Positions 2,196 to 60,875 of a stretch of 64,000 bases of DNA are shown here, piece after piece (position 1 is the stretch's first letter; every line of letters starts with the position of its first letter). Source of the stretch: Neocallimastix sp. 'constans' (taxonomy: Eukaryota); contig JBODTK010000107.1 of the NCBI GenBank assembly GCA_050613775.1, forward strand, positions 248,001 through 312,000, in the 5' to 3' direction. The position numbers and the translations under genes are program-made. Below the pieces are notes generated by a model, which was not told the DNA's origin, did no database searches, and was given only the letters and a program-made list of their open reading frames with translations.

Positions 2196-3860
2196 TTATA
2201 TACTAAGATTTTTTGGAATAAAATTTTTTGCCTTTAACCAAGAGAGGCATTGACGACTCCAGGTTTCGGTTGTAGTTTCACCTGTTTCTTGCATTAAAGT
2301 GTAAGGTCCACTACCATCTCCAAACAAGTGTAATTCAGCATTGGCACCGGCCTTCTTCCATTCCATGAATAAGGCGACGAGACCGGCAGCAACATTAGGA
2401 TGTTCAACACGAGACATAATCAATAATGGTGGAGCATTGGCTGGTACAGTGACTGGCATTAAAGAGGGTCCAAAGTTTGTAATAATGAAGTTAGGACGTT
2501 CTGAATCATCGGATGCAGTCATAGAAGCTTGAATGGCGACACCACCACCAGCAGAGAAACCAAGATAACCAATCTTTTTGGAATCAATATTCCATTCATT
2601 AGCATGCTCTCTAATCATACGAAGAGCTGCTCTACCATCCTTGCCAGCCATTTCAATCACGGCATCACCATGTTCATCATGTAATGGATTTGCATCAGCT
2701 TTAGGGAAATTGTCAGGATGAGTAACATCTACCGTTGGGGGCATTTGTCCTTGAGCTCCGGCCTTATTTAAATGATAACGTAATCCAATGGCAGCAATAC
2801 CATGGGCATTTAAAAAGGATGCCATCTCTTTGACATCACTATCCCATGAAAGTACTCTCATACCACCTCCTGGACATAATACTACAGCACAGCCATTGGC
2901 AATATCTTTATTGGGAAGATAAACTTCGATGGCTGGCTTATCCATATCACTAAGTTGTTGACTATCGCTAGAAGGAAGAAAAAATTGCATTGGTGTTGAT
3001 TGTACTGGTTGTGAATTTTGTGTTGGTTGAGTTGGTTTAATAGTTTGTGTTGGTTTTTCAGGTTGCTGAATTACTTCTTTTGGTTTTTTCTCTATACCAC
3101 ACCATTGTTCATTTTCAACACCCCATTCAAAACCATCGTCATCTGTAAAAACAACCGTATTACCATCACAACATGGATAATCTAATTTATTTAATTTCAT
3201 AATAATATATTAAAACGTTAATATAATTTTCACAAAAAAAAATTTTTTTCAAAAATTATAATTTATATACCTGGAAGAGACCAGCACGAAGATTCAGTAC
3301 ACTTTTCTTCATTTATACCACACCAATTATCATTTTCAATACCCCATTTTCCTTTTTCTTTTTTTTTTTTTTTTAAATTTATTAGTATATAAAAATATTA
3401 TTAACATTTTATATTAAAATTATTATTTTTTAAAAGTATTTTTTATATTATCACTCCTCATATATATTATTTAATATTTTAATTATATATAATTTTTACT
3501 ATTTTTTATTTTCTAATATTTTTATTTATATTTTCTATTTTTTTTTTTTTTTTATAATTTAATATTTGTCATTATATTTACATTTATTACTTTTATATTT
3601 ATATTTTTTTTATTACATTACATTTTATTAATTTATTTATATTTATTTTTTTTATTTTGTTTTTTAAATATTAATTAAAAAAAAAAAAGTATGAATTAGT
3701 ACAATAAGTAAAAAACTTAATTATACATACCATCTGTAGTAGTAGGACTACAAGTATCTTCACAACATGGATAACCATAACTAGTTGACCAACAAGTATT
3801 AGCTGATTTAGTAAAGCCAACTAAACCTGACACAAAAGCAATAATTAAAAACTTTTTCAT
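2196..3860 (-). CDS. Secreted cellulosomal alpha/beta-hydrolase (esterase-like): signal peptide, two fungal dockerin (CBM10-like) domains, Pro/Gln/Thr linker, hydrolase domain; ~400 aa
   Basis: Exons complement(3731-3860, 3271-3357, 2196-3181) join in frame with GT-AG introns. Signal peptide [19 protein letters not shown]. Dockerins [11 protein letters not shown]...[12 protein letters not shown] and CWSLPDYPCC...[12 protein letters not shown]. Hydrolase motifs CPGGG (oxyanion) and GFSAGG (nucleophile elbow). Confidence 0.9.
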
Positions 3861-15350: not shown

Positions 15351-16430
15351 GAAATAGTTGAAAAGAAAATTATTCAAGCTTAGCCTTGAGATTATGATAA
15401 TAGTATTTATTATTTTATATTGAGTGCTCTTCTTGGCGGGAGTTCAACATATGAAAAAATTAAATTTAATGATGGGAAACAAAGACAATTAGTTGACAAT
15501 ATTTTTAAAAAAAGTTCAACTTCGTTGACTGTTTTGTATTTGGTGGGAATTACGGAGTTTCTAACAAACGTAATACTGTTAATTTGTCGATCTTTTAGAT
15601 TGATGATGAAATGGTATTCCGTTGAATCTACAGTTGCTAAGAGTGTCGACGTCGATTTGATAAGGCATGGATTTTCACCTCCCGGTGAAAGATTTGATAC
15701 AGATTCCTTTGATAACACTAATACTAAAATTATTACTCGCAATAATGAACGTGGTGTTATCATCGATGAATGGGAAAAGTTAGAAACTATTGCTTCTAAC
15801 GCACTTTTAAAATTATATAATATATAATATTTTTATTTCATATATTTTATTCTATATTTAAATCATGTAATTTTATTATTTTTATAAATTAAATTAGGTT
15901 ATTCCCTTAGTCTTAAAAAAAAAAAAAAACTTAGCCTTGAATATCCCAATTTAATTTAGGTTTTAACTGGATTTTAAGATCAAGATCTGGTTTCAAAGAC
16001 TATCAGAAATGGTAGAATTTTTGACAATCGTCCGAAAGTCTACCCATGTTGTGGAGAAGGTGAACAATCGTTCATCCATTGGATATTCGAATGTTCTTCC
16101 TTTTCATTATATGGATGTGATTCTTTAGATTTCATCAATGATCTTTTTTATAATATTCAGTGATAAAATAACGACTCTTTTTTCCTTATTACCTTCCTAT
16201 TCTATTATATTAGAATATAGATATTTTATCAATAAATATATTTACATATTACACCTAGGTGGAATTTCAGCTTTAAATGACCTACAAGTCGATACTGGGG
16301 AATGGAGACATTTAAGTTAGGAATAATAGTATTAGTAACCCTATTATATATATTTCATAACACAAATACTGAACAGTTTAATTAGTTCCGTTTAAAAAAT
16401 CTATAGAGAGTAATTCTTTTAATAAGACCT
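15351..16430 (+). mobile_element. Degenerate LINE ORF2 C-terminal region, interrupted by a younger LINE insertion
   Basis: Removing 15390-15940 rejoins KLSLEYPNL...FNWILRSRSGFK. Downstream YPCCGEGEQSFIHWIFECSS (16041-16100) is a CCHC zinc-knuckle remnant, followed by LHLGGISALNDLQVDTG. Stops and frameshifts are present. Confidence 0.7.
15390..15929 (+). mobile_element. 5'-truncated LINE 3' end with poly(A) tail and 11-bp TSD, nested in an older LINE
   Basis: CTTAGCCTTGA occurs at 15379-15389 and 15930-15940, with an A run at 15915-15929. ORF 15420-15827 (LLGGSS...VGITEFLTNVI...KSVDVDLIRH) resembles the C-termini of the other LINE remnants in the window. Confidence 0.85.
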
Positions 16431-16799: not shown

Positions 16800-18006
16800 A
16801 AGTCAGACGATTTTATTATATTGTCACAACAAACTTGTTATTAACTTATTATCAATTACATTCAGTGATTTTAAATACTTTATTAATCAATTATCAAAAA
16901 TTGCAACAGATACTATTGGTCATAGTTTAATTAGTAATTATTGGGCTATGAGTTTTAGACATAATAATAGATTTTTTCAGTCATGGAATATATCCTATAT
17001 ACCATTTCTGAAATTAAAATACTATTCTATTGATAAAAAAGAATAATAAAACTCCAAGTCTTGATGATATTCTTATTTGAATTTACAAAGCAATGTTTTA
17101 CAGTATAGAATTAGATGAAAAGTATCCCAATGCTGTAAAATATCTTGAAATTTTATTCAATAAAATTTGGGATGTTTCCTTTCTTTAAAAATGAAATACT
17201 GATTCCATTTTTTCTATTCCAAAAAAAAAAAAAGGTTGACCTTTCTAATTGTAATAATTATGGTGGAATTTCATTAATTAATGTAGGTTTTTAAAAAAAA
17301 AATTAATTCAAAGGTAATTGAAGATTAAATCTTAAAATATGCATTTAAAAATGAATTTATCAGACCTGAACAATTTGGTTTTAGTAATCATAAAGAATGT
17401 ATTAGTCTTTATATTTCTATCAGAAAAATCTGTTTAAGCGCTTTCAGACGAATTTGACATTCATCGTGGAGTGCGCCAAGGGTACCCCCTTTCTCTTATT
17501 TTACTTAATTTATTTATTGATAACTTTTTTTTGGTAAATGTAATGAATTTGGTATCAGTATTTGAAATAAAAAAAAAGGAAAAAGGAAAAAAAAAGTTAT
17601 GGAGGTTTATCTGCAGATGATATTGTTTTAATTGCTCCCAGTAAGGAGAATATGACTTCACTTCTTTATCATATCTTTAAATAGGCTGACAAGAACGAAA
17701 TGACATTTGGAATAAATATATGTGTAACTATGGTAATAAAATCTCATAACTTTGTTCAAACTTATTCTTTTGAAGATCCTACTTTTCTTCCTTAGTATAT
17801 GTACTCTCTTCCTTAATGTTTCATGTTTTCCATTCATCGATGATTTATTACTTCAACCTGTTAATATACAATCTAAAATCAGGAAGTCTTTATTTCCATT
17901 TTCTAATTTTCTAATAAACAATAAATGTACCTTTAACTTTTTAAAATACATGTTTTACAATCTATTATTATTATCAGTAAAAGACTTTTATTATGCTTCT
18001 TTACTT
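16800..18006 (+). pseudogene. Decayed non-LTR retrotransposon reverse transcriptase (left part)
   Basis: Motifs in the expected order, across frameshifts: NKTPSLDDI (K-PG-DG), LEILFNKIWD, PKK.DLSNCNNYGGISLINVG, IRPEQFGF, HRGVRQGYPLSLILLNLFI, GGLSADDIVL (Y/FADD), NEMTFGIN, ending YYASLL at 18006. Confidence 0.9.
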
Positions 18007-18855
18007 TTTAATTCTGTCACTGATATCAACATACCGCTTAGACATAAATACCGACTGATAATGATGATATAACTTGATCATGAATGGCTTATCAACACTT
18101 TTGTTATTTTCAAGCATCATCGCTATATCAAGATTGATCAAGATTTCGAAAATAATCCCATTGATGTAATCACTAACCAAATTCTTACAATCACAGTTAA
18201 TCAACAAATTCTTCTTCAAATCCTTTTTCTTCTTTTGATCTTCTTTATCATCATCATCATCATCATTTCTCTTTTGATCATCATCATCGTTATCATTATT
18301 ATCATTACTTTTTTGATCATCTTTATCATTACTTTTTTAATCATCATCATCGTTGTTATCATTATCATTACTTTTTTGATCATCGTTGTTATCATCATCA
18401 TTTCCTTTTTGATCATTATCATCATCATTTCTTTGTTCAAAGTCATCATTATCATCAACATTATTATCAAAATCATTACCAACAACATTTCTTTGATCAA
18501 AAACATTATCAACATTTGGAGATTTTTGTTCAACAATTTTGTGAGATTTTTGTTCAACAATTTTTTGAGACTTTTGTTCAACATTATCACTACCATTATC
18601 AACATTGTTATCATCATCAAAATGATGTTTGTGATGATTGTTATCATTATCAACTTTGTTATCATTGTTATCATCATTGTTCTTGTCAAAAAAATAACGT
18701 TTGTGATTTTTGTACGATGTGATACGATTCTTGCAGCGATAATACCTTAATCCGATGTCTTTGTAGAATCGGTTTGAGTCACATACCATCGATTGATCAC
18801 ATTTACCACAAACTAATACTGACGACAAATAATTCTCGGTTCTAGTTTGATGATG

Positions 18856-18891
<36 letters not shown>

Positions 18892-19320
18892 GCTACTGAT
18901 TGTTGTGTACAATAGCTTTTTATTATACCCGTTTGAGATCAGTCTTTGAACAATCAACCATTTGTTAGAACTGAGTTTGTTCCGATCGTTGATAATCAAA
19001 TCTTGATCCATCGTTAAGATCTTCTGGATAATGTTGGTGGTGATAATTCCATTGGATTGATCAAGATGATCATTATCATCATCAATCAGTTGTTCAATCA
19101 GATTATTATCATCATTGTTGTTTGAAGATTTCTTCTTCCAAATATCTCTTCTCACAATCGAAGTACAACGTTCATCACTTTGAAGATACTCGCATACTGT
19201 TTTGTACGATCCTTTTGCAATGTACTGATCGTAGATCAGATTGACTACGTAACGATTGTTAATCAGAATATCAACAATCTTACTCGGTTTAGGTTTGTTC
19301 TGACAACAATTCTTGTTCAT
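18001..19320 (-). pseudogene. Large serine recombinase-like C-terminal module (recombinase domain plus zinc ribbon), with one internal nonsense codon and no catalytic domain visible
   Basis: ORFs 18337-19320 and 18001-18219 are in the same frame, separated by a single TAA (18337-18339) in a DQKSND repeat. Recombinase-domain pattern: VVNLIYDQY...SYKTVCEYL, TNIIQKILT, LSSNKWLIVQRLI. Zinc-ribbon pattern: YLSSVLVCGKCDQSM...RYYRC...CDCKNLVSDYINGIIFEIL. Confidence 0.75.
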
Positions 19321-19438
19321 TGTTCAAGAAAAGTAATTGTTCAAGAAAAGTAATTGTTCAAAAAAATCACAAATCCAATCCAAAGTATTGTTCAAAAAAA
19401 ACTCAAAATCCAATCCCAAAAAAAGTAATTAAAGCAAT
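18007..19438 (-). mobile_element. ~1.43-kb foreign insert inside the LINE RT pseudogene
   Basis: The LINE frame breaks after TAT GCT TCT TTA CTT (18006) and resumes at GT TCC AAT AAA (19439). The insert has different codon and oligonucleotide usage (many GATC, AAC, ATC, TTG). Confidence 0.7.
19313..19416. repeat. Array of TTGTTCA heptamers and duplicated AAATCCAATCC upstream of the recombinase-like ORF
   Basis: TTGTTCA at 19313, 19320, 19337, 19354 and 19388. The 17-bp unit TTGTTCAAGAAAAGTAA is tandemly repeated. AAATCCAATCC at 19371 and 19406. Confidence 0.8.
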
Positions 19439-19560
19439 GTTCCAATAAAGTAAGTACAAGAAGTATTCAATCTTTAATTAATATTGGTATGTTATGGTGC
19501 CTTGGCTCATCTCATACTAATCAATAATTAAATTAATAAAGTAAAGAATGGTTTATCTTG
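19439..19560 (+). pseudogene. Continuation of the LINE ORF2 pseudogene (right part)
   Basis: Reads SNKVSTRSIQSLINIGMLWCLGSS, the natural continuation of ...YYASLL(G) that ends at 18006. Confidence 0.65.
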
Positions 19561-20485: not shown

Positions 20486-21254
20486 ATGGCATCAATTCCA
20501 CCAAATAAAACATTATATGTTAACCATTTGAATGAAAAAATACAGAAAGAAGGTTATTAAAATTTCCATCATATATTAAATTTTTAAATGTTTTAAATTT
20601 AATAATAATCGAATATGAATTGTTTAATAATAAATGAATACATATACATAAAACTTTATTTTCAAAGACAAAAAAAAAGTTATGATAATCTAAAAAATCA
20701 AATTCTATAAATTATAAAATACAAAATGTCTAGTAATACATTATTTATTTACTAATGTTGTACACATATCAAAAGTTATTTGAAATACTTGTTTTTTTTT
20801 TTTTTTTTTTTATTAAATATATATATATATATACACATTCTAATTTTTTTTTTTTTTTTTTTAAAAAAAAATTAAATTTAATATATATATATTTTCTTTA
20901 ATTTTTATTATCATTATTATAATATTTATAATATATGATATTATAAATAGAACTACGGAAAGCATTATATTATTTATTTTCACAATATGGAAGAGTAGTT
21001 GATGTTGTAGCCCTAAAGACAATGAAAATGCGTGGACAAGCATTTATTGTATATAGAGAAATCACAGAAGCAACAAAAGCAATGAGATCATTACAAGGAT
21101 TTCCATTATTTGATAAGCCCATAGTATATGTTATATCTTTTTTACTTATTTATTATATTATTTAATAATGAAGAAATTTCAGAAATAAAATGAAATTAAA
21201 ATTAAAAATAAAATCCAAAAGAAAAAAATTCAGATAGATATTTTATATATAATC

Positions 21255-21306
<52 letters not shown>

Positions 21307-21925
21307 TAGAAATTATTATATATATATAAATTTTTTGATAGATGAAATAATTTAAAAATTAATATAATAATAATTTTAAAAATATAAAAAAAAAAAAATC
21401 TTTTTACTTATTATTAAAAAGAAGATAATATTAACATAAATATAATTTTTGATTTTATATTTTTTTTAATAAAATATTATATATTAATAAAAGAAAATAA
21501 ATTATGCTAAAACAAGATCAAATAAATTAAATGTATTAGATGGAGAATACAAATTGGATGAATCTAACACTAAATCAATATATTCACAAATGTTTTCCGA
21601 ATCTGCATTCTCAACAGGAGTTACAACTGTATCTAGAAAAAGAGAACATGAAGATGATGATCAAGATAATAAAAAGATAGCTCTTGAGAAATCTAAAGGT
21701 AAAGACTTATTAATTATAGTTACATATTGAATTAATAAATAATAATGATAATAATAATAAATGAAAAACGAAAAATAAAGAAAAATAAAAGAAAATAAAT
21801 GTATATCAATATATATTAATTTCATTTTAATTCTTTTATTTTTTATTTTAAATATAAATTTATAAATCATTTATTTAAAATATATATACATATAAAATTA
21901 TATATATTTTTATTATAAATTAAAA

Positions 21926-21976
<51 letters not shown>

Positions 21977-22273
21977 TAATAAAAATTATCAAAAGATACT
22001 AATGAAGATAAAGGAGAAGAAGAAGAAGAAAATGTTATTCCAAATCGTATTCTCTTTTTACAAAATTTACCGATGGATATTACCGACAAAATGTTATCAT
22101 ATCTTTTTGTTCAATATCCAGGTTTTAAGGAAATTAGACTTGTACCTGGTAAACCAGATATTGCCTTTGCTGAATATGAAAATGAATTACAAGCCCAAAC
22201 TGCATTAAAAGTTTTAGATGGTTTTAACATCACTCCAACTAATGCCATGAAAGTTGAATTTGCTAAGATTTAA
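20486..22273 (+). CDS. SNRPB2: U2 snRNP B''/U1A-family two-RRM spliceosomal protein
   Basis: Exons 20486-20552, 20951-21123, 21494-21698 and 21996-22273. [39 protein letters not shown] (U2B''-type loop), [11 protein letters not shown]...[18 protein letters not shown]...MKVEFAK. Confidence 0.92.
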
Positions 22274-34117: not shown

Positions 34118-39623
<5,506 letters not shown>

Positions 39624-40638
39624 ATTATGCTACGATTGTATTTTTTTTTTAATCATTCTAAGTTAAAAAAAAAACTATATATTATTTTATATTTAGTTTA
39701 ACTTTATTTATTATATATTGCTTTTTCTTTTTTCTTTTTTCTTTTTTTTTTATTTAATGCTTCTTCATCAAAATAAATTTATTATTAAAAAAAATATCAA
39801 TTTTCATATCTTAATGATTTTTGATTCAGAATTTATTATATTTTTTTACATTTAGAATTAAAAAAATAAACTTTTTAAAAAATATATTATATTACTACTA
39901 TTATTTCATATTTGTAAAGAATAAAGTTTAATATGGTAATAATTAAATTATGGTTATTGATATATTGTATTATGTTTTTAATAAATAAATCAATAAATAA
40001 AAAAAACTAAATCATATAATAATTAAAAATAACTTTTATAAATAAATAAAATTTAAATTATAAAAATAAAACTTAAAAAGAATAAGAGTCTCAATGATTA
40101 AGTTGCTTAATAGAATAGTAAATATCATTTAAAATAATATTATATTTAAACAAAAGACCTGTTAATAATAATTAATTATAGAATATTATTAAAAGATATG
40201 AATTATATATATGAAAGATTTTTTAAAAGCAATAACAAAAATCAGAAATATTAAAGAAAAAAAAAGAGGAAGTATTATTTAAATAATTTTTGATTTTTGA
40301 TTCAGAAATTTAATTGTTAAAAGAATAAACATTTTAATATTTAAATATAATTTTTGTTTTAGATTGATTTTTATAAAGGAAAAATTTATTAGTGAAGTTT
40401 CATATATTAATTATTAAAAATTTATTTTTTTTTTTTTTTTTTGAATTATTTTTTTTTCTTTATTAGTAAATTGAAAAATACATTTTAATTATATATTTTA
40501 TTTAATTATATTATAATAATATTTTCTTATTGCCATTAGTTATGTGAGTAATTTAATTTTCTTTTTATTTTTTTTTTGATATTAATTTTTTTATATATTT
40601 ATTCAAAAATTTGTAAAAAGCCCTAAATATTTTAATTT

Positions 40639-54744: not shown

Positions 54745-57700
54745 TTATTGTAAGGTAATAGGAATAACTTGATATACTCCATTAATGAATTCTATTTTAA
54801 TTTTTAAATCTGTATTTTTCATTGAATTATATTCTTCATATGATAAATTTTTATCAAGTTTCACTGTAATTATTTTATTTTCATAAGCCTTTAGTTGTAT
54901 AATTGTGTCATTATCAATAATCACGGACTTTCTAATATCATTTTCAATTGAATTATTGCTTATCAAACCATCAATATAAAAATTATTTGTATATCCCAAA
55001 ATAATATTATTATTTGATGGTATCATCTTAAATATATATATCTAATAATGAAAAAATATAAAAACAAAAAATATTTTAATTAATGTAAAATTAATTTGTA
55101 TTTTAATTTAATATATTTCTTACATTTTCTGATGGATTTATAATATTAAATGTCTTTAATGAATTTATATTACTATACTTTAAGTTAATATGATAATAAT
55201 CAAGATTATGTTCAAACTTTATTCTTGGAATTGTTATTATACCAAACAAGTGTAGCTTCGTAATTGATTCATCTTTAATAATATCTCTTATGTCATCATT
55301 AATACATTGATTTTCGGTATTCTCATTATTTTCTAATGACTTACAATAAGATAATCTTGAATATAATAAAGCATCATATATTCCTTCGAATGAGCTTTTC
55401 ATGTTAATTTTAAATGAAACTTTTTCATTTGATTTAATAGTTGCTGTTTTTGGTTCTATATTAAACACGTCATAGGTATTATATTTATAACTTTTTGCAA
55501 ATTTATTCATTTCCTCTATTAATTTCTTCTTTTCAATATCTTCTATAGATTCTACTATATTTTTTTTAATTTCATATGGACTATTTCCATAATCATTCAA
55601 AGATAAAATACTAATTTCCTTTGATTCAAATGTTTTATTTTCTTCACTGCTATTATCATCAATACTTTTATTCATTTCATTAATAGTCGAATTTTGACTT
55701 TTATTTAATGATGTACCATAATTGTTATCAGTAATATTACTATTACTAATTCTTTCAGTATTATCATATACGCAATTAATATTATATATTGAGGTTTGAT
55801 TTTCATCATATAAACTATTTACACTTAATACAGGAATATTTTCTAAACTTGAAGTTGAATTTTCATTATTAATTACACCTTCCTCAAGCGTTTGCTTTAC
55901 TTCTAATACTTCTGGAGATACTTTAGTAATTTTACCTAATAATTCTAATGACATGTTAACTAGATCATTATTTTTACTAATAATTGATTTAAATTCATTA
56001 AATTTATTGACTTTAGTTTTATTAATTAATAATTTCCATGAAAGAGTAACATCTTTTGGTGATTCATTTAATATACATATAGTTTTAGTAACTGAATTTT
56101 GAGCATCTGGAATATCAATACAATTATTTTCATTAAAATCAACATTTGATGATACCAAACGTGTAGAGAAAAACAGATTTTTGATGTCATTATAATCCTT
56201 TGAAGTAGGCATATTAATATATGTAAGTGGAACACCCTTTACTTCCATTCTTATTGGAATAGTTTTCTCAATTCCATTGCTAACCTTAATTGTTAATTTA
56301 TCTTCATATATTCCTGATATATTGCTATATGCTTTAATTTCAATATCAACCACATCATATGGTTTTAAAATACCTGATCTTGAACTAATTTCAAACCCTG
56401 CTCCATATTTATCATAAATAAGTTTTTTAAGATTTTCAATGTTTTCTTTTTTAAATATTTTATTCTTAAGATAACACTGACCATTTTCGGAATAAAAGTA
56501 AAATTTTTTATCGTTTTTTTGTTTAAGAATTAAATTTTCGGAATTATTTTTGATTGTATCATCATTTAATGCGTCATAATTAATATTATATTTATCAAGT
56601 GAAATTTCATATTTTGATTCAACTTGGAATGTATTAATAATTCGTATAATTTTTTTATATGATTTGAATAATTGACATTCATTTCCATAATTTAAACAAC
56701 CACTATTATCAATTAATTTATTATCAAAGTCTTCCTTACTATTATATATTTCAATATCAATATCTAATCCTTTAATATCCAAATTCAATTTTACACTTAA
56801 GTTTCCATAATTTTCAACCATTCCATCAATTACAGCGTTAATTTCAATATCATCAAAATTTCCTATAGTTTTTCCTTTTACATAAAATTTAACATCAATC
56901 TCTTCATTTCCATTAATAATTCCTTCCTCATTATCAAATCTAATTGATATGTCTTTATTACTAATTGAAAATATTTTATAATGAGTTGGTAATAAAGTAA
57001 TATTTTTTAATGTAACATACATTTCTTTTTCTATGTTTAAATAGCATACACAATTTTCCTTTTTATTATTATTTTGAAATATAACTTTTGGTGTTAACAC
57101 ATTTGCAACTAATCTAATACTGTGTGAGAAATATTTTTGTGGAGAGATAACAAATTCTTCATTTTGAATTAAATCTTCTTTGTGTTCGCATTTTTCATTG
57201 ACTAATTCACATATTATTTCTCCTTTGAACTGTTGATACCATAAAGGAATAAATATAATGTCAATTTTTACACTTTCTTTAGATTCTAAATAGCCTCTTT
57301 TTGGTTCAAAAAGTGCTAAATAGTCACATTTTTCCTTATTTTTTGTATATAAATTTATATTCCAATTAATTTTTTTTTCAGAATTATTAGTAAATAACAA
57401 ATATTCCTTAGCGCATGATCCTAACTGAATTATTCCAAAATCTATAATTTTTTTATCAAAAACAAAATCTCTTGATTTAAAATGAAATTCACCATTAATA
57501 TTTATATTAACTGCATTAAATTTATTATTATTAAAGTAAACTTCAATATTTCCATTAAAATTTCCTGAAAAATAACCTTTTACTGAAAATAAAATTTTTG
57601 TACTAGAACCAGGTTCGATAACTCCATTTGATTTACTTATTTTCATTTTAGCAATTTCTGGTGTATTATTTGTAAGTATTGAAGAATATGATATTGATGC

Positions 57701-60397
57701 TTTTCCGTTATTAAAAATACTAATTTCTTTTGTATATTTTTCATCAACGTTTAATTTTTCTGGTATATTTAAAATTGCTGGTACTACTTCTATTTTTAAT
57801 GGCTCTGATTTTCCAATACATCTAATATTAATTAACTCATTACCATTTATATTATCTTCTATAAAATTTAAATTTTTATTATACAATAATTGGGCAATAA
57901 TGTCATAATGTTTATAATTTTTTGGACAAAAAGAAAATTTGAATTCTATTACTTCTCTTGGTTTAAATACTATTTCTTCTGGATATACTTTTAGTACTTT
58001 CTTTCCAACATTATAACATGGTATTTTAATATTTGAATTATTACAAGCATTTTCTTTATCTTTTGATTCTAAATTTTCCATTAATAAATTATTATAATCA
58101 TAATATGAACTCATAATATCTTTAGGCTTATCAATAATATTCCATTTTATTGGAATATTAACATCTGTCATATTTTTTAAACGAATTATTTTGGTTATTT
58201 CTGAATTTATATTACATGTGTCAAACTCTAAAATATTTGAATATATTATTTCTTCATTAGTACAAATATCTCTATATGTTTTTTTTTCTATTAGTTCGTC
58301 ATAATTTTCGATTGAAACGCATGGTTCTTGAGCATTTCCTTTAATAGTTATTTCTTGCTTTTCACAATTATCCCATGCTAAAAATACTTTAAGTTCTTCG
58401 ATATAATTTAATTTTTTATTTTCCTTTTTAAAATTTAAATTATATTTTGGATCAAAATACACTTTTAATTTTAATTTTTCGTTTTCTTTTATCTCACAAT
58501 ACCCAGGAACTATTTTAAATGGTCCATTATTATAAATATATTTACTATAGTCATGATTTAGTTTAATATTATGTAATTCCTCACAAGTTCTTTTATCATC
58601 ATGATCAATTATTATAAATTTTCCCTTTCCTCCACTATTTTTTATTATAACTTCTGTTTCGGACGTTAAATTCACAATGCAAGGATTACAATTTAATATT
58701 GATGGAATATCAATTTTTGGTTCTTTAATTTTTGCTAAAATATTAATTATTAATTTATCTCCATATGAAGATGTAACATTTATTGTTCCATAACATGTTT
58801 TCAGTGATACAGGATTAAAAATAACTTTATAATGAGCACTTAATCCAGGAGAAATAAGACCATTATCTCCTGGTGAATATATTTTACATATTCTAAAATA
58901 TTTTGAATTTTCTTCAGATTCAATTACTACTTGAATTCTTTGAGTTTCGTATGTTGTATTTTTTATTATTAAGATTGATGAATAAGATTTATATGGAACA
59001 AATTTATCAAATCGAATGTTTGATGGAATGGCTACCATACCTTTTTTATTTACAATACTAGATAATGTTCGAAAAGTACTTGATAATGAATTCTTACTTT
59101 CATTCATCCTGTCTCTTTGATTACTATATTTTGGATGATAATTTTGTATTGCTTTATTCATTTTAGTAGAAATAATATTTCTTGTTAATTTACTATTAAT
59201 AGCATTTTTATTTTGTTTAGGTCCATATATATCATTATAATTTTCAAAAATATTATTAGACATTAAACCATTCTCTATATTTGATATGTCAGTATATATC
59301 ATATTTTTAATTTGATCATTTGTCCAATATATTAAGTTCTGTTTTTTTTGCATATTTTCATCAAATTCTGGAATAACATATTCGGTAGGCCAAGATAAAT
59401 TATAATAAATAGGACCATAATAATTAATAATTTTCATTGTATTACTAATATTACACTGTTTTAAAGCATCCCACGAAGCACTAATGAAATTTTCAGTTTC
59501 AATTATTTCTTCTAACTTTTTATTTATTACTAATGAAATATTATTAATTTTATTTTCATATTCTTTTTCAATATCGTCAACATTTACTGATGATGCATTA
59601 TATAAAAATGAAAACATTTCTTCTTGCTTTGGAAAAGGAGGAATTTGTTTTAAAGTATAATTAGATGAATTTTTATTTTTAAGTTTATTATCAATACTGT
59701 TTTTACTCAATTCCTGTGAATTTAATAAAAATAATGATGAAAAAGCAGAGTTTACTGATTCATTTTCTTTTGCATTTTTAACCCAAATATTTGTTTTAAA
59801 ATCACTATGTATATTATTTAAGTTTTCTTCTATTTTTGATAATTTGTTTTTAATATCCCAATGTTGATATAAAGATGTATTATTATTAAAATTTAATTTG
59901 TCAAAATTTTTATTATAATAATGACTATGTACAGTGTAATCAATCAATTCCTGAATAATATCATCAATTAATTTATAAACTCTTCTTTTTTCCCAAAATT
60001 TTAATATTTTATCTTTTTTTTCTTTATCAATATTATCATATAAATCAATATTTCTACTTTTATTGTTTTGGAAAATATTTTTTTTATCTTTAATAGAACC
60101 AATATATTTTCTACAATTATTATTGTATTCTGCATTAATTTTTTCAACGTAATCTTTAGTTCTTTCAAATATGAGTTTTTCCATTTCTTCTTTTTCTCTT
60201 TTTTTTCTTTTCTGAACTTCTTTTATTTTAACAATATTAGTTACTGATTCATTATTAGTATTATTGCTATTTACATTGTTCTTAATAGTTTTTAATTGTT
60301 GTATATCATTGGGTAAATTTTCATTTTCTAAATTATTAATGTTACCATTAGTATAATTTTTAAATGAAATATGATCTTCTTGCAACACGCTTCCCAT
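54745..60397 (-). CDS. DLEC1: DLEC1/CFAP81-like ciliary protein with tandem ASH (Hydin-like) Ig domains, ~1850 aa
   Basis: Exons complement(55124-60397, ~54745-55026). Repeated ASH motifs: IKNTT, GLISPGLSAHYKVIFNP, IKNSGGKGKF, LKNMTDVNIPIKW, IDFGIIQLG, LKNITLLPTHY, GIYEDKL. Confidence 0.7.
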
Positions 60398-60875
60398 ATT
60401 TATATTATATATATATTTTCATATATATATTTAAAAAAATTCTTTACACACCTTTTATAGTAATTAAAAATATATATATTGATTATAAAAAAAATATAAT
60501 TAAAAATCTCTTAAAAAAATATTTTTATAAATATTATTTTCATTAATCTATATATTTTTATTATAATATGTATTATATTTTCCTATTTGAGTTATTATAA
60601 AAATTATATAAATAATTTTAAGTGAAGTTCGATAAAAAAAATATAATCATAATATATTATTATAAAAACTCCGATAGAATATTTTAATAATTTTAAAATT
60701 AAAATTATTAAAATTATAAAAAAAAAATTTGTGTAACACATTAATGAAAAATATATATAATATATATAATAATAATATAATAATTTTTATTTTTATATTA
60801 TAAAAATAGATTCAAATTCTATTTTTGGTAATCTTCTGTTTATTAATATCATCACTATTATATATATAAATTGAA

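What the first reader, a model, noticed from the sequence alone, without database searches (positions are those of the whole stretch)
18001..19320. Large serine recombinase (phage-integrase type) DNA-binding module in a fungal genome
Seen: the minus-strand frame encodes, in order, VVNLIYDQY...SYKTVCEYL, TNIIQKILT, LSSNKWLIVQRLI, YLSSVLVCGKCDQSM, RYYRC and, after a low-complexity insert, CDCKNLVSDYINGIIFEIL. Established: this matches the recombinase domain (PF07508-like) plus four-Cys zinc ribbon (PF13408-like) of large serine recombinases. These enzymes are typical of phages and bacterial integrative elements, not of eukaryotic nuclear genomes. Inference: the Asn/Asp-rich expansions in its loops suggest long evolution in an AT-rich eukaryotic or eukaryotic-virus setting rather than fresh bacterial contamination. 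It could be a relic of an undescribed serine-recombinase mobile element or DNA virus of anaerobic fungi.
Basis: partly seen in the sequence, partly recalled or inferred. Interest (0 to 1): 0.9.

Follow-up and report, generated by a model that had tools for sequence, protein, structure and literature searches.

The report
Integrase DNA-reader from hidden gut-fungal element
A dead, 1.4-kb piece of foreign DNA lodged in a gut-fungus chromosome encodes only the DNA-gripping half of a phage-type integrase, and its intact relatives likely come from a small, undescribed DNA element living in these fungi that has been captured several times.

Summary
In detail: the minus-strand frame 19320→18008 is the C-terminal DNA-binding region (recombinase domain + four-Cys zinc ribbon) of a large serine recombinase (LSR). 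But it is not an enzyme. It belongs to a small, deeply diverged family (20 representatives among 1.84 billion proteins) whose 14 full-length members start where the LSR DNA-binding region starts, lack the catalytic domain and lack ~70 residues of coiled coil. The window copy is a 1,431-bp foreign fragment (18008-19438) that interrupts a LINE relic in frame, has no target-site duplication, ends in mid-gene, carries a stop, and has synonymous GC unlike host genes (39/117 vs 223/1838). Both junctions are bridged by independent contigs. Neocallimastix lanati holds seven such gene models, none whole, from at least three family branches; whole genes occur only on 1.1-3.2-kb unnamed contigs. The one I could read (1,919 bp) has a single ORF, a perfect 50-bp terminal hairpin and a 9-mer repeated 15 times only in the flanks. 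Best reading: repeated nuclear capture from a small extrachromosomal DNA element of gut fungi whose protein likely binds its own flanking repeats. The free element and its host are inferred, not shown.

The parts
18008..19438 (.). Foreign 1,431-bp insert; both ends are breaks inside a longer source sequence; no target-site duplication
   Evidence: LINE frame resumes across it; uninterrupted LINE form in runs X4, X5 (tables 5, 5c); relatives continue past both ends (P0023, P0027/P0049); junction letters
18008..19320 (-). Broken gene for a non-catalytic LSR C-terminal-domain protein; starts at the family's Met, stop at 18337-18339, last ~70-90 residues missing
18934..19287 (-). Recombinase (RD, PF07508-like) helical DNA-binding domain
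18727..18831 (-). Zinc ribbon, first three cysteines (CGKC ... YRC)
   Evidence: PF13408 E 4.1e-5; profile match to bacterial LSRs, probability 92.9
18205..18708 (-). Asp/Asn-rich repeat tract inserted inside the zinc ribbon, holding the in-frame stop
   Evidence: same position expanded in P0003 and intact P0004, absent from compact members
18008..18195 (-). Fourth cysteine and following helices, cut off at the LINE junction
19321..19438 (-). Upstream non-coding flank with TTGAACAA four times (last overlaps the ATG); candidate binding-site array
   Evidence: 9 copies on the insert's minus strand vs 8 in the other 62.5 kb on both strands
16900..18007 (+). Degenerate LINE reverse-transcriptase relic, left of the insert (target)
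   Evidence: six-frame reading; RVT_1 weak, E 0.079; many paralogous contigs
19439..19530 (+). Continuation of the same LINE relic, in frame with the left part

Best explanation
The window holds a dead 1,431-bp foreign fragment, likely captured by DNA-break repair into a LINE relic from a small extrachromosomal DNA element (plasmid or virus segment) that likely lives in anaerobic gut fungi. Shown: the fragment's gene is an LSR C-terminal domain without catalytic domain or coiled coil, it is broken, foreign in codon use, and one of at least seven broken copies from at least three family branches in Neocallimastix. Inferred: the intact ~320-aa protein cannot cut or join DNA; it would be a monomeric, zinc-dependent, sequence-specific DNA-binding protein that reads the short motifs iterated on both sides of its own gene and serves replication, end protection, partition or self-regulation of a gene-sized replicon, much as iteron-binding proteins do. 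The window copy itself has no likely function.
For: Insert interrupts a LINE in frame, no duplication, ends in mid-sequence. GC at two-fold sites 39/117 vs host 223/1838, Fisher p 8e-9. 0 of 7 N. lanati gene models carry all motifs; five named Neocallimastix-locus rows need 3 label changes on the tree and one clade is rejected (p-AU 1.9e-96). 14 of 14 full-length members lie on contigs of 1,091-3,186 bp, four of the six in one cluster at 2.9-3.2 kb. L001: one ORF, perfect 50-bp hairpin from base 1 (z -12; none of 25 bp or more in the 64-kb window), ATCRTAGAT 15 times, all outside the ORF, shuffle mean 0.03, identical 37-nt repeat in both flanks, CpG at codon boundaries 11 vs 3.2 expected, while 2 of 3 host genes are depleted. 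Codon differences window vs L001 concentrate at third positions (79/55/137). Model residues 1-282 align to 4KIS 134-454; fourth Cys to terminal helix 56-62 residues vs 128 in two true LSRs. The isolated LI integrase CTD (133-452) binds a 25-bp half-site (PMC3783163, passages) and is monomeric without the coiled coil (PMC5499577, passages).
Against: Only one intact locus could be read as DNA; its hairpin may be an amplification or assembly foldback. Short contigs are also what AT-rich eukaryote nuclear DNA gives in metagenomes, and L001's two-fold GC (18/169) equals that of host genes (p 0.62). The habitat and host of the intact members are not given by any search. No replication, capsid or other partner gene was seen. 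One of three host genes is not CpG-depleted. pN/pS between the window copy and a paralog was 0.48 but not significant (5 syn, 9 nonsyn; p 0.15). DNA binding to the repeats is untested; the motifs differ between the two flanks examined.
Confidence: 0.5

Rival explanations
1. The gene belongs to a nuclear mobile element of gut fungi whose catalytic partner (a separate serine-recombinase catalytic domain or another transposase) is encoded elsewhere; the protein targets or binds element ends, and the broken copies are decayed insertions.
For: Multiple dispersed copies with conserved upstream flanks (P0023 and P0043 share the same upstream stretch); repeats on both sides of the gene in L001; bacterial clusters of catalytic-less recombinase proteins exist.
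Against: The window insert ends in mid-gene and mid-flank with no duplication or terminal repeat; copies come from deeply diverged branches and not from one burst; foreign codon use; no partner ORF on L001.
Confidence: 0.2
2. An old bacterial gene transfer, domesticated as a nuclear DNA-binding regulator in some gut fungi, with pseudogenised paralogs in Neocallimastix.
For: L001 has host-like GC3 (0.125); purifying pattern between members; gut fungi take up bacterial genes (own knowledge; a dockerin-bearing esterase of that kind is in this window).
Against: Every named record is from Neocallimastix and is broken (0 of 7 whole); no named whole member from any genome in three homology searches and one profile search; the window branch has GC3 0.38, unlike a resident gene; intronless, CpG-rich, hairpin-flanked context.
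Confidence: 0.17
3. The element belongs to another gut microbe (ciliate, parabasalid, amoeba or an AT-rich bacterium) and the fungus only picked up its DNA from the shared habitat.
For: Host of the intact members is unknown; foreign composition of the window copy; nearest Atlas clusters are bacterial.
Against: At least three independent captures in one fungal genus suggest an intracellular source; no relative in 185,579 prokaryote genomes, plasmids or viral contigs.
Confidence: 0.11
4. Assembly chimera or contaminant read joined into the fungal contig.
For: No single listed contig spans the whole stretch.
Against: LINE resumes in frame; both junctions bridged; a slightly different N. lanati sequence on a 1.33-Mb contig has the same truncation.
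Confidence: 0.02

Closest known systems
Large serine recombinases / serine integrases (LI/A118 integrase 4KIS, phiC31, Bxb1, SPbeta)
   Same: Recombinase domain followed by four-Cys zinc domain and the terminal helix-hairpin; fold matches the whole CTD.
   Different: No catalytic domain, ~70 residues of coiled coil missing, extra C-terminal beta-rich tail (residues ~285-327 not tested by fold search), eukaryotic setting, no att-type integration seen.
Bacterial stand-alone Recombinase/Zn-ribbon proteins (Atlas clusters of 176-351 aa)
   Same: Same catalytic-less architecture.
   Different: Not detected by the family profile at E 0.001; may be fragments or parts of multi-recombinase cassettes; no repeat-flanked single-gene context known to me.
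[quoted passage not shown]
   Same: Repeated nuclear capture of genes from a cytoplasmic AT-rich element, found in different stages of decay (PMC4431711, passages).
   Different: Source there is the known linear VLE with polymerase and toxin genes; here the source is unknown and the gene is LSR-derived.
IS607-type serine recombinases in eukaryotes (S. kluyveri six-gene family; Fanzor2 elements)
   Same: Serine-recombinase-related genes of bacterial origin in fungal genomes, multi-copy (PMC2715888, passages; PMC3627910 search listing only).
   Different: Those have an N-terminal DNA-binding domain plus the catalytic domain; this family has neither, only the LSR-type CTD.

Membership tests
Large serine recombinase | N-terminal resolvase-type catalytic domain with serine nucleophile | tested here: not met
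   14 of 14 full-length members begin at the CTD; none of 20 representatives exceeds 352 aa; word search covered 176-853 aa; L001 has no other ORF of 40 aa or more; in-frame stop just upstream of the window ATG.
Large serine recombinase | Recombinase domain (PF07508) | tested here: met
   Fold match, Atlas features and structure; Pfam itself only E 0.13.
Large serine recombinase | Four-Cys zinc ribbon (PF13408) | tested here: met
   Above cut-off in 6 of 11 relatives scanned; four Cys motifs in 13 of 14 full-length members; window copy 24.3 bits vs 25.3.
Large serine recombinase | Coiled coil inserted in the zinc domain | tested here: not met
   56-62 residues from fourth Cys to terminal helix vs 128 in two true LSRs; short helices in the model.
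Large serine recombinase | att-site integration of a defined element | tested here: inconclusive
   The window insert ends in mid-gene, so it was not placed by att recombination; ends of whole elements could not be read beyond L001.
NUPAV-like captured fragment | Broken-ended, decaying, compositionally foreign piece without target duplication | tested here: met
NUPAV-like captured fragment | A free plasmid or virus as source | tested here: inconclusive
   One single-gene 1,919-bp contig with hairpin and repeats; no proof of a free molecule or host.
IS607/Fanzor2 element | N-terminal HTH + serine catalytic domain, with TnpB/Fanzor | tested here: not met
   No such domain or neighbour in the window insert or L001.
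Yeast-type linear VLE or CRESS/segmented DNA virus | Terminal inverted repeats with polymerase B, or Rep/capsid genes | not testable with these tools
   L001 is a single-gene contig; sibling segments could not be searched (record not held).

The most novel reading that the evidence does not exclude
Anaerobic gut fungi carry an undescribed class of gene-sized, hairpin-capped DNA replicons (plasmid or segment of a multipartite virus) whose only protein is a serine-integrase DNA-binding domain recast as an iteron/terminus-binding maintenance factor; Neocallimastix chromosomes record repeated captures of it.
Probability: 0.3. Interest if true: 0.9.

Novelty: new variant of a known kind. Interest (0 to 1): 0.7.

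Why it matters
Serine-recombinase genes reported in eukaryotes in the papers I saw are IS607-type; an LSR-derived family tied to fungi was not found in my searches. It shows the integrase DNA-reading module living on without its enzyme, under apparent selection, in a eukaryote-linked element. If the source is a native replicon of anaerobic gut fungi, it would be a starting point for vectors in a biotechnologically valued group that is hard to transform (own knowledge), and the monomeric 25-bp-type reader is a candidate compact DNA-binding module.

Tried and rejected
No whole genome is held for the window, so other copies are known only through protein records. No relative in viral contigs (3 protein scans; 2 DNA patterns), prokaryote genomes or plasmids; phages gave only two weak zinc-ribbon hits (E 0.01-0.02) that are ordinary full-length LSRs. 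PDB sequence search with the family profile: 0 hits. The unbiased wide fold search did not run, so the C-terminal tail (residues ~285-327) is untested. Rfam on L001: 0. L001 is not circularly overlapping at its ends. No second copy in the window. P0051 is an unrelated kinase-like protein that shares a cluster with a 49-aa fragment and was dropped. Runs labelled RNA hold the stretch, but as contigs only, so transcription is not shown. Depth hints of paralogs in runs X4, X5 are not copy numbers. Earlier findings: 4 look-ups, nothing. Literature: serine recombinase + Neocallimasti 0 papers; endogenous viral/plasmid 0; extrachromosomal 0; some searches listed only papers whose titles and abstract starts do not concern this family. 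Supplements were not read; gene-transfer tables of gut-fungal papers could list these gene models.

Full report
Observation. The minus-strand frame from ATG 19320 runs 327 codons to a TAA at 18337-18339 and continues in frame to 18008. Pfam gives PF13408 at E 4.1e-5 (24.3 bits, cut-off 25.3) and PF07508 at E 0.13; the ESM Atlas gives Recombinase/Zn-ribbon clusters for 30 of 30 hits at 0.93. The window is AT-rich eukaryotic DNA with spliced genes and a dockerin (CBM_10) protein; its closest named relatives are Neocallimastix proteins, so I read it as an anaerobic gut fungus.

The insert. Six-frame reading shows a decayed LINE reverse transcriptase on the plus strand whose frame stops at 18007 and resumes in register at 19439. 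Contigs in runs X4 and X5 show the uninterrupted LINE form, a paralogous copy joining 17971 to 19439. The insert is thus 18008-19438 (1,431 bp). No target-site duplication is visible; at most one base is lost or shared. Both ends are breaks in a longer source: relatives continue the gene past the left end (P0002, P0004, P0027, P0049) and the flank past the right end (P0023, P0043). Counting only pieces with 31 or more letters on each side, the left junction is bridged in 2 of 4 runs (X1, X5) and the right in 1 of 4 (X1), among the listed pieces; 488 were not shown. An N. lanati gene model on a 1.33-Mb contig, differing slightly from the window, stops at the same residue (P0050). The DNA is foreign: GC3 0.38 in the core against 0.11-0.14 in four host ORFs (a fifth, the dockerin esterase, has 0.23), and G/C at two-fold sites 39 of 117 against 223 of 1,838 in three host ORFs (p 8e-9).

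The family. Three word-index searches and one full profile search give a small family: 6, 11 and 5 proteins and 20 representatives at E 0.001 among 1.84 billion, none longer than 352 aa and none recognisable as a bacterial LSR. Fourteen full-length members (320-487 aa, six clusters) start at the same Met region; 13 of 14 keep all four zinc cysteines. The AlphaFold model of P0005 (pLDDT 66.8, pTM 0.68) matches LSR C-terminal domains: 4KIS E 1.4e-4, LSR chains in all of the top 24 listed ranks; VIA Z 11.0, rmsd 6.3, 205 aligned, residues 1-282 onto 134-454 (a re-alignment of Foldseek's hits, not an independent search). The LI integrase CTD is defined as residues 133-452 and binds a 25-bp attP half-site alone (PMC3783163, passages). 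So the protein begins exactly where the CTD begins. The span from the fourth Cys to the terminal helix is 56-62 residues against 128 in two ordinary LSRs: the coiled coil is gone. LI CTD without coiled coil is monomeric (PMC5499577, passages). The window's own core, modelled separately (pLDDT 62.9), ranks LSR structures first to fourth but without significance (E 0.16).

Where members sit. All named records are Neocallimastix. N. lanati has seven gene models (P0011, P0019, P0028, P0032, P0039, P0044, P0050); 0 of 7 carries all motifs; three skip the middle of the zinc ribbon where unnamed near-identical records end early (P0017, P0020, P0041), which suggests gene models bridging breaks. In a 14-row tree (window plus 13 proteins; near-duplicates and other fragments left out; P0019 trimmed to its matching part) the five rows tied to Neocallimastix loci need three label changes and one clade is rejected (p-AU 1.9e-96, or 4e-37 for the three long rows); label shuffles are as low in 68 of 500, and P0025, P0028, P0016, P0019 are long branches. 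This fits at least three captures, or old paralogs. All 14 whole members lie on unnamed contigs of 1,091-3,186 bp; their habitat is not given. Runs holding the window's own stretch are faecal metagenomes or one coded organism (20 of 24 rows).

The one intact locus read. L001 (1,919 bp) has a single intronless ORF at 653-1615, flanks of 11-12% GC, a perfect 50-bp inverted repeat with a 37-nt loop starting at base 1 (z -12; the window has none of 25 bp), ATCRTAGAT 15 times, all in the flanks (shuffle mean 0.03), and an identical 37-nt near-palindromic block in both flanks. CpG across codon boundaries is 11 against 3.2 expected; host genes give 8/14.1, 5/10.7 and 25/20.9. The window's 118-nt upstream flank has its own motif, TTGAACAA, four times. 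Window and L001 differ mostly at third codon positions (79, 55, 137 over 255 codons). Against this: one locus only, the hairpin could be an artefact, and L001's synonymous GC is host-like.

Mechanism. Shown: non-catalytic, coiled-coil-less LSR CTD; broken, foreign, ragged insert; several such relics. Inferred: a monomeric zinc-dependent DNA reader that binds repeats around its own gene and maintains a gene-sized replicon; pieces of that replicon enter chromosomes at DNA breaks, as yeast NUPAVs do (PMC4431711, passages). I give this 0.5; a nuclear bipartite mobile element 0.2; a domesticated gene 0.17; a non-fungal host 0.11; artefact 0.02.

Known kinds. It works like the DNA-binding half of an LSR but is not an LSR: two defining features fail. 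It is not IS607-type, the serine-recombinase class reported in yeast (PMC2715888, passages). No paper in the held library joins serine recombinase with Neocallimastigomycota (related searches); subscription journals and supplements were not covered. Verdict: real, new variant of a known domain, with a fair chance of marking an undescribed element; interest 0.7.

Noticed in passing
window 2196-3200 (-): Intronless CBM_10 dockerin fused to a BD-FAE/alpha-beta hydrolase, 39.5% GC, GC3 0.23: looks like a bacterial-derived cellulosomal esterase.
   Followed up: partly
window 15978-16320 (+): A second decayed LINE piece with a C-terminal zinc-knuckle-like motif, upstream of the LINE relic that hosts the insert.
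   Followed up: no
window 20947-22273 (+): Spliced two-RRM gene resembling U1A/U2B'' (RRM_1 hits; name recalled).
   Followed up: partly
window 55103-60418 (-) and 36073-39629 (-): DLEC1/HYDIN-like Ig-repeat flagellar protein and an M14 carboxypeptidase, fitting a flagellated fungus.
   Followed up: partly
P0019 (N. lanati gene model): A decayed piece of the same family joined to what looks like a copia-type RNase H tail (recalled motif, no Pfam hit): a second case of capture in or beside a retroelement.
   Followed up: no
L001 138, 214, 528: AAACCCTAAA, a telomere-like motif, three times in the 5' flank next to the hairpin.
   Followed up: no
P0025: Most distant full-length member (about 29% identity) lacks the fourth zinc cysteine and has a ~22-residue insert where the coiled coil would be.
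   Followed up: no
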